Below are positions 13,284 to 13,587 of a stretch of 32,000 nt of DNA, in pieces. The position numbers were made by a program, and so were the translations under genes. The notes under the pieces are model-generated. The model did not search any database. It had not been told where the DNA came from and saw only the letters and a list, made by a program, of their open reading frames with translations. Every line of letters begins with the position of its first letter. Positions within the stretch are counted from its first letter, which is position 1. Source of the DNA: an uncultured Clostridia bacterium (GTDB lineage Bacteria; Bacillota; Clostridia; TANB77; CAG-508); the NCBI GenBank assembly GCA_944391865.1, contig CALXVD010000013.1, positions 1 to 32,000 of the forward strand, given 5' to 3'.

Positions 13284-13587
13284 GCCGCTGTAGCTCAGTT
13301 GGTAGAGCAACTGACTTGTAGGATGAATATTTTATTCAGAATCATCTTGCACCTTTATATGGAAACATATAAAGTGGACACCGCTAATTCGGGGAAAGCT
13401 AAGTTTGAAAAAATATGCCAATCCCGAGCTAGAAAAGAAATTTTTAAGTGTAGAGACTTTATACGGTGTGCCTAAGGCAATTCGCTATGGCAAAGAGAAA
13501 GTCCAGACTACAAACACATATGTGGCAATGAAAATTGTAGTAGTATGAATCAGTAGGTCGTCAGTTCAAGTCTGACTAGCGGCTCCA
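13284..13587 (+). tRNA. tRNA-Thr (anticodon UGU) interrupted by a group I intron
   Basis: The 5' exon is 13284-13319 (GCCGCTG...ACTGA CTTGT). The 3' exon is 13548-13587 (AA TCAGT AGGTC GTCAG TTCAAGT CTGAC TAGCGGC T CCA). Joined, they give a canonical cloverleaf with anticodon loop CTTGTAA. Confidence 0.88.
13320..13547 (+). ncRNA. Group I intron (IC3-like, tRNA-anticodon-loop type), 228 nt, no ORF
   Basis: The P1 helix pairs exon/intron TGT|AGGATGA with TCATCTTGCA and places the splice-site U13319 opposite a G. P2 is CTTTATATG-GAAA-CATATAAAG. The core blocks AATTCGGGGAAAGCTAAG, GTGTAGAGACT, ACGG and CCTAAGGCAA..CGCTATGG match, from memory, the Azoarcus/Anabaena tRNA introns. The last nucleotide is G13547. 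Confidence 0.85.

What the first reader, a model, noticed from the sequence alone, without database searches (positions are those of the whole stretch)
13284..13587. Group I intron in the anticodon loop of tRNA-Thr(UGU)
The tRNA-Thr gene is split after U36 by 228 nt. Removing 13320-13547 restores a canonical cloverleaf.

The insert has group I hallmarks:
- A 10-bp P1 helix with the splice-site U13319 opposite a G.
- A GAAA-capped P2.
- Core blocks (AATTCGGGGAAAGCTAAG, GTGTAGAGACT, CCTAAGGCAA..CGCTATGG) that, from memory, closely resemble the Azoarcus tRNA-Ile and cyanobacterial tRNA-Leu IC3 introns.
- A terminal G.

Unlike Azoarcus, about 47 nt follow the CGCTATGG block. This includes a 7-bp stem ACTACAA/TTGTAGT with a nested hairpin, so the intron has an extended P9 periphery.

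The bacterial tRNA group I introns I know of sit in Leu(UAA), fMet, Ile(CAU) and Arg(CCU). A Thr(UGU) host in a Clostridia-like Firmicute would extend that list.
Basis: partly seen in the sequence, partly recalled or inferred. Interest (0 to 1): 0.62.

Follow-up and report, generated by a model that had tools for sequence, protein, structure and literature searches.

The report
Self-splicing intron in tRNA-Thr gene
The only threonine tRNA gene able to read this gut bacterium's commonest threonine codon is split by a real, small group I intron of a type catalogued in 2020, and a DNA-cutting enzyme gene that probably helps the intron spread lies just downstream.

Summary
Removing 13320-13547 (228 nt) joins 13284-13319 to 13548-13587 into a canonical tRNA-Thr(UGU). 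That tRNA is identical, base for base, to the uninterrupted gene of two relatives.

The insert is a compact Azoarcus-type (IC3) group I intron:
- Rfam RF00028 scores 46.3 bits (E 7.5e-11), just under the cut-off of 50.
- U13319 pairs with G13349 in P1, and the intron ends in G13547.
- In 37 species, 99.2% of the proposed P1-P9 pairs are kept, and 28 pairs show double compensatory changes.

ACA makes up 64% of threonine codons, and the assembly has no intron-less UGU gene.

The host is not new. Williams (bioRxiv 2020) already lists a 'Thr.5Ug' class, and this scan has met the same family on other genomes.

The more interesting part is the HNH nuclease gene at 13661-14053:
- Among 300 family genomes, 39 of 56 with the intron carry it full-length, almost always within about 90-270 nt. 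Only 1 of 244 without the intron does.
- Decayed relics sit beside both intron-bearing and intron-less genes.
- In other lineages the same nuclease lies inside the intron's P5 loop.

This fits a homing-element life cycle, but nuclease activity is untested.

The parts
13003..13031 (+). Promoter-like site (TTGACA-17-TATTAT) upstream of the tRNA-Lys/Glu/Thr cluster
   Evidence: 11 of 12 consensus matches. This is a consensus match only, not evidence of function.
13090..13273 (+). tRNA-Lys(UUU) at 13090-13165 and tRNA-Glu(UUC) at 13199-13273. They lie upstream in the same cluster, in the conserved order Lys-Glu-Thr.
   Evidence: The same gene order is seen in relatives.
13284..13319 (+). tRNA-Thr(UGU) 5' exon (36 nt). 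It ends with anticodon base U36, which is U-1 of the intron.
   Evidence: The exon is identical to the same part of intron-less alleles.
13320..13547 (+). Group I intron, 228 nt, with no ORF of its own. It is compact and of the IC3 type.
   Evidence: RF00028 scores 46.3 bits, E 7.5e-11. Covariation across 37 species supports the structure.
13317..13351 (+). P1 (13317-13326 / 13342-13351), with the splice-site wobble U13319-G13349 and the guide sequence ..UUGCA. The short P1a (13327-13329 / 13333-13335) is truncated here compared with most relatives.
   Evidence: The U-G pair is kept in 37 of 37 sequences, and three pairs show double changes.
13353..13374 (+). P2 hairpin: 9 bp capped by a GAAA tetraloop (13362-13365).
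   Evidence: five pairs show double changes. One search gives the coordinates.
13378..13469 (+). P3 (13378-13383 / 13464-13469), which encloses the P4-P6 domain.
   Evidence: 100% of cells paired, and three pairs show double changes.
13389..13427 (+). P4 (13389-13394 / 13422-13427) and P5 (13398-13403 / 13414-13418). P5 carries a variant of the 11-nt tetraloop receptor (GCUAAG..UAUGC).
   Evidence: P4 is invariant. The middle pair of P5 covaries in 17 sequences. The receptor reading rests on comparison with the Azoarcus row.
13428..13449 (+). P6 (13428-13430 / 13447-13449) and P6a (13432-13436 / 13441-13445).
   Evidence: four pairs show double changes.
13453..13504 (+). P7 (13453 and 13455-13458 paired with 13500-13504), with bulged A13454. 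It is the presumed guanosine-binding helix and forms a pseudoknot with P3.
   Evidence: P7 is invariant in all 37 sequences, so it gives no covariation evidence. Its 3' strand lies in the 24-mer used to fish the relatives.
13470..13491 (+). P8 with the canonical 11-nt GAAA receptor CCUAAG..UAUGG (13471-13476 / 13486-13490).
   Evidence: It is nearly identical to Azoarcus P8. Receptor presence tracks the GAAA loop of P2 between clades.
13507..13544 (+). P9 domain: closing stem 13507-13511 / 13540-13544; P9a 13515-13517 / 13522-13524; P9b 13525-13529 / 13534-13538 with a GAAA loop at 13530-13533.
   Evidence: P9b and P9a show double changes. The closing stem is invariant.
13547..13547 (+). Terminal guanosine (omega-G) at the 3' splice site.
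   Evidence: G is at this position in 105 of 105 resolved family members.
13548..13587 (+). tRNA-Thr(UGU) 3' exon (40 nt, including the encoded CCA).
13587..13614 (+). Intrinsic-terminator hairpin followed by a U run. It closes the tRNA cluster.
   Evidence: -12.7 kcal/mol, z -6.4. The consensus scan missed it because the T run is part of the stem.
13661..14053 (+). Free-standing HNH endonuclease gene (130 aa) with an N-terminal zinc ribbon. It is the probable homing partner of the intron. Its stop codon overlaps the ATG of the SDR gene at 14053-14778.
   Evidence: - Pfam HNH scores 25.1 bits against a cut-off of 21.4; PHROG HNH families reach E 3e-20.
- Catalytic and zinc residues are invariant in 19 copies.
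- It co-occurs with the intron.
- Homologues lie inside the intron in L018 and L096.

Best explanation
The region 13320-13547 is a functional, compact group I intron. It belongs to subgroup IC3 (Azoarcus-like core) and to positional class 'Thr.5Ug'. It sits between anticodon base U36 and position 37 of the assembly's tRNA-Thr(UGU) gene.

**Inferred mechanism, from the established chemistry of the family**
1. The Lys-Glu-Thr precursor is transcribed.
2. The intron folds. The P2 GAAA loop docks on the P8 receptor, and the P9b GAAA loop docks on the P5 receptor.
3. P1 presents the U13319-G13349 wobble pair.
4. A free guanosine bound in P7 attacks after U13319.
5. G13547 then takes the guanosine site.
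6. The freed 3'-OH of U36 attacks after G13547. This joins the exons into a normal tRNA, with the anticodon stem helping to align them.

The intron is an optional element in this bacterial family. It is linked to an HNH endonuclease gene 73 nt beyond the tRNA. That nuclease most likely promotes DNA-level spread of the intron-plus-nuclease unit into intron-less alleles (trans or 'collaborative' homing).

**Shown here:** gene structure, conserved fold, equivalence of the product to intron-less genes, and the co-distribution with the nuclease. **Inferred:** catalysis, in-vivo splicing and nuclease target.
For: **Gene structure and model match**
- ARAGORN calls the split tRNA, and the joined exons give a clean cloverleaf.
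- RF00028 matches its full model at 46.3 bits, E 7.5e-11.
- In all 105 resolved family introns the exon ends in U and the intron ends in G.

**Conserved fold**
- An unbiased RNAalifold run recovers P1, P2, P3, P4, P5, P6a, P8 and P9.
- The full structure, including the P3/P7 pseudoknot, has 99.2% of cells paired against 35-41% in slid controls.
- 28 pairs show double changes, and 0 of 500 shuffles reach the observed values on four of the five measures.
- The core blocks and both tetraloop-receptor motifs match the Azoarcus row.
- At clade level, the GAAA loop of P2 tracks the 11-nt receptor in P8.

**Product and dependence on splicing**
- The spliced 76-mer is identical to the intron-less genes of G065 and the same-genus G080.
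- The assembly has no contiguous tRNA-Thr(UGU).
- ACA is 63.7% of Thr codons.

**Distribution**
- 56 of 300 family genomes, in 17 of 50 genera, carry the intron junction.

**Nuclease link**
- Of the 56 genomes with the junction, 39 have a full-length HNH. Of the 244 without it, 1 does.
- HNH residues are invariant in 19 copies.
- Homologues lie in the intron's P5 loop in L018 and L096.
Against: **On the intron**
- No RNA evidence exists.
- The RF00028 score is below Rfam's gathering cut-off.
- P4, P7 and the P9 closing stem never vary. For P7 and P9 this is partly because the relatives were fished with a 24-mer that covers them, so these helices rest on sequence identity only.
- The assembly is 89% complete, so an unassembled intron-less copy cannot be fully excluded.

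**On the nuclease**
- G247 has an intact HNH beside an intron-less gene whose sequence equals spliced intron-bearing alleles.
- Phage iF6 has a homologue beside an intron-less tRNA-Thr(UGU).
- Neither case is expected if the enzyme simply cut every intron-less allele.
Confidence: 0.9

Rival explanations
1. The intron is a decaying relic, and the split gene is a pseudogene. Some other tRNA decodes ACA.
For: The RF00028 score is just under the gathering cut-off. The assembly is incomplete at 89%. P1a is shortened here compared with most relatives.
Against: - 99.2% of pairs are kept, with 28 doubly compensated pairs across 37 species.
- The exons are identical to working intron-less genes.
- The only other Thr tRNAs are GGU and CGU.
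- ACA is the dominant Thr codon.
- The same P1a shortening occurs in L070 and L071, which keep everything else.
Confidence: 0.03
2. The intron is real. The HNH gene, however, does not target the intron insertion site. It homes into its own empty spacer between the tRNA and the SDR gene ('intron-less homing'), and the intron 100-200 nt away is merely dragged along by co-conversion or shared descent.
For: - G247 has an intact HNH next to an uninterrupted, sequence-identical tRNA-Thr(UGU).
- Phage iF6 has an HNH next to an intron-less tRNA-Thr(UGU).
- Nine intron-bearing genomes have no HNH at all.
- Intron-less homing is an established pathway (Hausner et al. 2014).
Against: - The same HNH family sits inside the tRNA-Thr(UGU) intron in L018 and L096, far from any SDR spacer.
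- A more distant branch sits inside tRNA-Leu(UAA) introns.
- In three different gene neighbourhoods the constant neighbour is a tRNA-Thr(UGU) gene.
Confidence: 0.3
3. Splicing in the cell depends on a protein helper (a host factor, or the HNH protein acting as a maturase) rather than on the RNA alone.
For: The intron is AT-rich, and several helices are weak (P1a, P5, P6a). The HNH is more conserved than the neighbouring housekeeping gene in 93% of pairs. That would fit a second, selected role.
Against: - 17 of 56 intron-bearing relatives lack an intact HNH yet keep the intron and its fold.
- The architecture, with two tetraloop-receptor clamps, is that of Azoarcus-type introns, which are known from published work to self-splice without protein (established knowledge, not tested here).
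Confidence: 0.12

Closest known systems
'Thr.5Ug' class of bacterial tRNA group I introns (K. P. Williams, bioRxiv 2020, doi 10.1101/2020.01.27.920355)
   Same: The tRNA isotype, the insertion after the fifth anticodon-loop base (36/37), the U at -1 and the G at omega are all the same. The preprint's survey of 80,413 genomes raised the known settings from 4 to 21.
   Different: - The class is defined by position, not descent. Its seed (Rba53) is GC-rich and stands in a ggU context (apparently a GGU anticodon).
- The seed is only 65.5% identical to this intron, no closer than Azoarcus.
- The preprint's table is an image, so I could not confirm that UGU genes of gut Clostridia were counted.
- It reports no splicing tests and no nuclease partner.
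Azoarcus sp. BH72 pre-tRNA-Ile(CAU) intron (subgroup IC3; 'Aol6.Ile2.5Ug')
   Same: - The insertion site is the same (after U36), and only three exon bases pair with the guide.
- P2 is GAAA-capped, and P8 is nearly identical with the 11-nt receptor.
- P5 carries a receptor-type motif.
- It shares the AAUUCGGxGAAA, GUGUAGAGACU and AGUCCAG core blocks.
   Different: The host tRNA differs. This intron is AT-rich rather than GC-rich. Its P1 is longer (10 bp, plus P1a). Its P9 is a three-way junction rather than a single GAAA hairpin.
Cyanobacterial and plastid tRNA-Leu(UAA) intron ('Leu.3Ug')
   Same: The P9 layout is the same: closing stem, plain hairpin, GAAA hairpin, then a few bases and omega-G. 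Leu(UAA) introns in Bacilli-labelled and other genomes share this intron's 24-nt J8/7-P7-P9 string.
   Different: It is inserted after U34, not U36. It forms a separate clade in the intron tree, with support 100/99.
Collaborative (trans) homing of ORF-less introns by free-standing endonucleases in phages (Zeng, Bonocora and Shub 2009; Bonocora and Shub 2009; reviewed in Hausner et al. 2014, PMC3984707)
   Same: [quoted passage not shown] Relatives in which the nuclease gene is embedded in the intron exist, as that model predicts.
   Different: Here the setting is a bacterial chromosome and a tRNA gene, not a phage protein gene. The cleavage site is unknown. One relative (G247) keeps the nuclease beside an intron-less gene.

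Membership tests
Group I intron (Rfam RF00028) | Covariance-model score at or above the curated gathering score | tested here: not met
   The score is 46.3 bits against a gathering score of 50. The full model is matched, with E 7.5e-11 on 371 nt. There is no hit at gathering on the whole window. The near miss is typical: Williams 2020 notes that none of the 12 Rfam seeds was bacterial.
Group I intron (Rfam RF00028) | The 5' splice site follows a U that forms a U-G wobble in P1, and the intron ends in G | tested here: met
   U13319 pairs with G13349 and the intron ends in G13547. The U-G pair is kept in 37 of 37 Thr introns. U-1 and omega-G are present in 105 of 105 resolved introns.
Group I intron (Rfam RF00028) | Conserved P3-P9 core, including the P3/P7 pseudoknot, supported by comparative evidence | tested here: met
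   99.2% of cells are paired against 35-41% in slid controls. 28 pairs show double changes, and 0 of 500 shuffles reach the observed values on four of the five measures. Caveat: P4, P7 and the P9 closing stem are invariant, so they add no covariation.
Group I intron (Rfam RF00028) | Guanosine-dependent self-splicing that yields ligated exons | not testable with these tools
Indirect support: the predicted product equals intron-less genes, and no other ACA reader exists.
Subgroup IC3 (Azoarcus / tRNA-intron type) | A compact core without P2.1 or P5abc-type extensions, clamped by a P2 tetraloop with a P8 receptor and a P9 tetraloop with a P5 receptor | tested here: met
   - The intron is 228 nt.
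- The L2 GAAA loop is at 13362-13365, and the P8 receptor CCUAAG..UAUGG is at 13471-13476 / 13486-13490.
- The L9b GAAA loop is at 13530-13533, and the P5 motif GCUAAG..UAUGC is at 13398-13403 / 13414-13418.
- These match the Azoarcus row.
- L2 and P8 co-vary between the Thr and Tyr clades.
- The docking itself is inferred.
'Thr.5Ug' class (Williams 2020) | tRNA-Thr interrupted after anticodon-loop position 5, with U at -1 and G at omega | tested here: met
   Searches show the setting. The class name is verified in the preprint's seed file.
HNH homing endonuclease acting on the intron's host gene | Intact HNH catalytic motif and zinc ligands | tested here: met
   Pfam HNH is above its cut-off. 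H85, N97, H106 and eight Cys residues are invariant in 19 full-length copies, including the intron-borne and phage copies.
HNH homing endonuclease acting on the intron's host gene | Distribution tied to the mobile element, with decay and loss stages | tested here: met
   - Genomes with the intron (56): 39 have a full-length HNH, 8 a fragment and 9 none.
- Genomes without the intron (244): 1 has a full-length HNH, 9 a fragment and 234 none.
- The relics lie beside intron-less genes in the same gene order.
- These genomes are related, so the counts are not independent.
HNH homing endonuclease acting on the intron's host gene | Cleaves the intron-less allele at or near the insertion site, while the intron-bearing allele is immune | not testable with these tools
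G247 and phage iF6 are cases where an intact copy sits next to an intron-less tRNA-Thr(UGU).

The most novel reading that the evidence does not exclude
The HNH protein is a homing endonuclease specific for tRNA-Thr(UGU) genes, and it mobilises the ORF-less intron in trans. One nuclease family is found in three settings:
- free-standing beside an intron-less gene (phage iF6, G247);
- free-standing beside the intron-bearing gene (this window and 39 relatives);
- embedded in the intron's P5 loop (L018, L096).

Under this reading, the lineage preserves successive steps of how a mobile group I intron is assembled and later decays. It would do so in bacterial chromosomes and in an essential tRNA gene.
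Probability: 0.4. Interest if true: 0.6.

Novelty: new member of a known kind. Interest (0 to 1): 0.36.

Why it matters
**Annotation.** Standard tRNA finders skip this gene.

**Biology.** An essential tRNA depends on a ribozyme in about a fifth of the sampled species of this family.

**Evolution.** The family offers a rich natural series: the intron with an intact, decayed or absent nuclease gene; the intron lost but a nuclease relic kept; and the nuclease inside the intron. This series could be used to test how ORF-less group I introns and free-standing nucleases team up. So far that has been shown only in two phage systems.

Tried and rejected
- **Rfam at gathering threshold:** it found no intron. 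Only the permissive search on the short stretch did.
- **Literature searches:** four searches for bacterial tRNA-Thr or tRNA-Tyr group I introns found nothing relevant. Reviews listed only the four classical hosts. The relevant preprint surfaced only through earlier notes of this scan, and I then read it myself.
- **RNAalifold:** it paired the P7 3' strand with the identical GACUU word in the exon. I rejected this in favour of the canonical P7.
- **ARAGORN's 'tRNA-Asp' host in L087:** it lacks U-1 and omega-G and is probably an artefact.
- **Simple global alignment to Azoarcus:** it is unreliable in the P5-P6 region. I used only the motif blocks.
- **Phage collection:** it holds no copy of the intron.
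- **PDB sequence search with the HNH:** nothing significant was found.
- **Recent host-hopping between Thr, Tyr and Leu genes:** rejected, because each host's introns form one clade.
- **Two tRNA-Thr(UGU) loci in this organism:** probably wrong. C60 carries the exon variant of another lineage, and its SDR gene is only 68% identical to the window's. Together with the 4.8% estimated contamination, this points to a mis-binned contig.

Full report
**Observation**

ARAGORN in default mode finds tRNA-Lys(UUU) at 13090-13165 and tRNA-Glu(UUC) at 13199-13273, but nothing at 13284-13587. With introns allowed it calls tRNA-Thr(tgt) with a 228-nt insert at position 37. The joined exons (13284-13319 plus 13548-13587) form a canonical 76-nt cloverleaf with an encoded CCA.

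Rfam at gathering threshold reports no intron in the window. On the 371-nt stretch, RF00028 matches its whole model at 13323-13525 with 46.3 bits and E 7.5e-11. The gathering score is 50.

**The genome**

The window lies in a 1.50-Mb assembly with 27.9% G+C and 68 contigs. It is estimated 89% complete and 4.8% contaminated. The assembly has tRNA-Thr(GGU) and tRNA-Thr(CGU) but no uninterrupted tRNA-Thr(UGU). The spliced 76-mer matches only as two halves. ACA makes up 63.7% of threonine codons and 3.55% of all codons in 488 long ORFs. The cell therefore needs the product of this split gene.

Two short contigs carry related elements:
- **C60** has a second Glu / split-Thr(UGU) locus with a 234-nt insert.
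- **C65** has a tRNA-Tyr(GUA) split after U35 by a 225-nt insert with the same core.

C60 carries the exon variant of a different lineage, and its neighbouring SDR gene is only 68% identical to the window's. I read it as a mis-binned contig.

**Relatives and structure**

Nearly all were uncultured gut Clostridia and 'Clostridium sp. CAG' bins, with some Bacilli-labelled bins and one Spirosomataceae bin.

The hosts of the resolved cases were as follows:

| Host tRNA | ORF-less loci (the 118 fetched) | Resolved ORF-less introns incl. this assembly's copies | Loci with long, ORF-bearing inserts | Insertion site |
|---|---|---|---|---|
| Tyr(GUA) | 62 | 63 | 0 | after U35 |
| Thr(UGU) | 35 | 37 | 2 | after U36 |
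| Leu(UAA) | 5 | 5 | 6 | after U34 |

In all 105 resolved ORF-less introns the exon ends in U and the intron ends in G.

I aligned the 37 Thr introns with MAFFT, without any structure model. RNAalifold on that alignment recovered P1, P1a, P2, P3, P4, P5, P6a, P8 and the P9 stems on its own.

I then tested a full group I structure that includes the P3/P7 pseudoknot:
- 99.2% of cells are paired, against 35-41% when the partners are slid by 1-3 columns.
- 28 pairs show changes on both sides (188 cells).
- 0 of 500 shuffles reach the observed values on four of the five measures.

P4, P7 and the P9 closing stem never vary. For P7 and P9 this is partly an effect of how the relatives were found, so those helices rest on sequence identity with known introns only.

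**Subgroup**

The seed alignment of Williams 2020 gives the Azoarcus intron row. The window shares these features with it:
- the blocks AAUUCGGxGAAA, GUGUAGAGACU and AGUCCAG;
- a nearly identical P8 with the 11-nt receptor CCUAAG..UAUGG;
- a receptor-type motif in P5;
- GAAA loops on P2 and P9b.

Between clades, the P2 loop and the P8 receptor change together. Thr introns have GAAA plus the receptor in at least 32 of 37 cases. Tyr introns have GUGA, GUAA or GCAA and never the receptor (0 of 63). This matches the known GAAA specificity of that receptor and supports the P2-P8 contact.

The P9 region differs from Azoarcus. It is a closing stem around a plain hairpin and a GAAA hairpin, the same layout as in the Leu.3Ug, fMet.2Ug and Arg.5Ug seeds.

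**Is it known?**

My first searches and three reviews or databases named only Leu(UAA), fMet, Ile(CAU) and Arg(CCU) as hosts. Earlier notes of this scan, made on other genomes, pointed to K. P. Williams, bioRxiv 2020. I read it. It reports 5,292 split tRNA genes in 80,413 bacterial genomes and expands four classes to 21. Its seed file has rows named Thr.5Ug, Thr.3Ug, Thr.2Ug and Tyr.4Ug.

By that nomenclature the window's intron is Thr.5Ug. The seed of that class is a GC-rich sequence in a ggU context. It is no closer to this intron (65.5%) than Azoarcus is (65.0%), so the class is positional. The kind is therefore catalogued, though untested at the bench. This copy is a new member, and the same family has been reported by this scan on other DNA.

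**Optional element; junctions validated**

The 3' junction string occurs in 56 of 300 sampled genomes of the same family. These span 17 of 50 genera, including 7 of 14 sampled genomes of the window's genus. A reversed-pattern control gave zero matches.

Ten relatives fetched without the junction all have an uninterrupted tRNA-Thr(UGU) in the same Lys-Glu-Thr-SDR order. Each intron-less gene fetched (nine full-length; the G253 copy lacks its first base at the contig end) has the same sequence as the spliced form of some intron-bearing allele. The window's spliced 76-mer is identical to the G065 gene and to all 74 bases available from the same-genus G080 gene, which is cut at its contig end. This confirms the splice sites independently of any intron model.

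In a tree of 105 introns, the Thr, Tyr and Leu sets are each one clade, with support 95/85, 99/97 and 100/99. Host changes are therefore old and rare.

**The nuclease**

The tRNA cluster ends in a strong terminator hairpin at 13587-13614. An ORF of 130 aa follows at 13661-14053. It matches Pfam HNH above its cut-off, has an N-terminal zinc ribbon, and matches phage HNH families. Its stop codon overlaps the start of an SDR reductase gene.

In the 118 fetched loci, it or a fragment of it lies between the split tRNA-Thr and the SDR gene in 23 Thr loci and in no Tyr locus.

The same 300 genomes cross-tabulate as follows:

| Genomes | Full-length HNH | Fragment | None |
|---|---|---|---|
| With the intron junction (56) | 39 | 8 | 9 |
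| Without it (244) | 1 | 9 | 234 |

These genomes are related, so I give counts, not a test. In 37 of the 39 full-length cases, the HNH match begins 89-269 nt beyond the junction string on the same strand. All nine fragments in junction-negative genomes lie beside intron-less tRNA-Thr genes in the same gene order.

Further observations on the nuclease:
- **Conservation.** Catalytic and zinc residues (H85, N97, H106 and eight Cys) are invariant in 19 full-length copies.
- **Divergence.** The protein is more conserved than the adjacent SDR gene in 93% of 136 pairs and only weakly tracks it (rho 0.36). This suggests a maintained function. Horizontal movement is neither shown nor excluded.
- **Inside the intron.** In L018 and L096 the same nuclease (67-70% identical) lies inside the tRNA-Thr(UGU) intron. 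It is inserted in the P5 loop and reads through the P5 and P4 3' strands. The L096 copy is frameshifted. Six tRNA-Leu(UAA) introns carry a more distant homologue.
- **In a phage.** In Enterococcus phage iF6, an unannotated homologue (56% identical) ends at the 5' edge of an intron-less phage tRNA-Thr(UGU).

**Reading**

The intron is real and almost certainly spliced. The pattern of intact, decayed and absent nuclease genes, together with intron-less genes that keep nuclease relics, matches the invasion-decay-loss cycle expected for homing elements. It also matches the 'collaborative homing' model, in which a free-standing nuclease and an ORF-less intron share a target and may later fuse (Hausner et al. 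2014).

The nuclease's target is not known. G247 and phage iF6, where an intact copy sits beside an intron-less tRNA-Thr(UGU), fit better with a target outside the 36/37 junction or with some form of self-protection. I therefore keep a hitch-hiking rival at about 0.3.

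Noticed in passing
G000 contig C65:218-528 (not in the window): A tRNA-Tyr(GUA) gene is split inside the anticodon (after U35) by a 225-nt intron with the same core. 62 other species genomes show the same arrangement. These Tyr introns form their own clade. They have GUGA, GUAA or GCAA loops on P2 and no 11-nt receptor in P8. 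The HNH family studied here was found at none of the 62 Tyr loci.
   Followed up: partly
G000 contig C60:80-389 (L001): A second split tRNA-Thr(UGU) carries a 234-nt intron and has no HNH gene. Its exon variant belongs to another lineage, and its SDR gene is 68% identical to the window's. It is probably a mis-binned contig from a related species.
   Followed up: partly
L012, L025, L049, L065, L094, L104: tRNA-Leu(UAA) genes in Bacilli-labelled bins and one Spirosomataceae bin carry 677-724-nt introns at the classical U34 site. These introns contain an HNH ORF 46-54% identical to the window's. I found no mention of ORF-bearing tRNA-Leu introns in the papers I read.
   Followed up: partly
L143 (Enterococcus phage iF6, MT909815.1 41038-41501): An unannotated HNH ORF, 56% identical to the window's, lies inside the phage tRNA cluster. 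It ends at the 5' edge of an intron-less tRNA-Thr(UGU). That tRNA has the same anticodon loop as the bacterial gene but a different anticodon stem.
   Followed up: partly
L138 (G247:C44): An intact 126-aa HNH gene sits beside an intron-less tRNA-Thr(UGU) whose sequence equals spliced intron-bearing alleles. This is the one exception among 244 junction-negative genomes, and it is awkward for the simplest homing model.
   Followed up: partly
L142 (G227:C55) and L141 (G295:C1): G227 has a 437-nt insert with two copies of the intron core and two 3' junction strings 91 nt apart. This is either a partial internal duplication or an assembly artefact. In G295 the HNH-SDR block is inverted relative to the tRNA.
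   Followed up: no
window 13166-13195: A perfect 30-nt palindrome (AAAATATCCTAAATTTATTTAGGATATTTT) lies between tRNA-Lys and tRNA-Glu. It may be a processing or attenuating hairpin inside the tRNA cluster.
   Followed up: no
window 13031-13066: A 16-bp hairpin followed by a T-rich tail lies directly after the promoter-like site and 24 nt before tRNA-Lys. Its role is unclear. It could be the terminator of the upstream ORF, or a leader structure.
   Followed up: no
window 3430-3651: A T-box leader scores above Rfam's gathering cut-off (104.1 bits).
   Followed up: no
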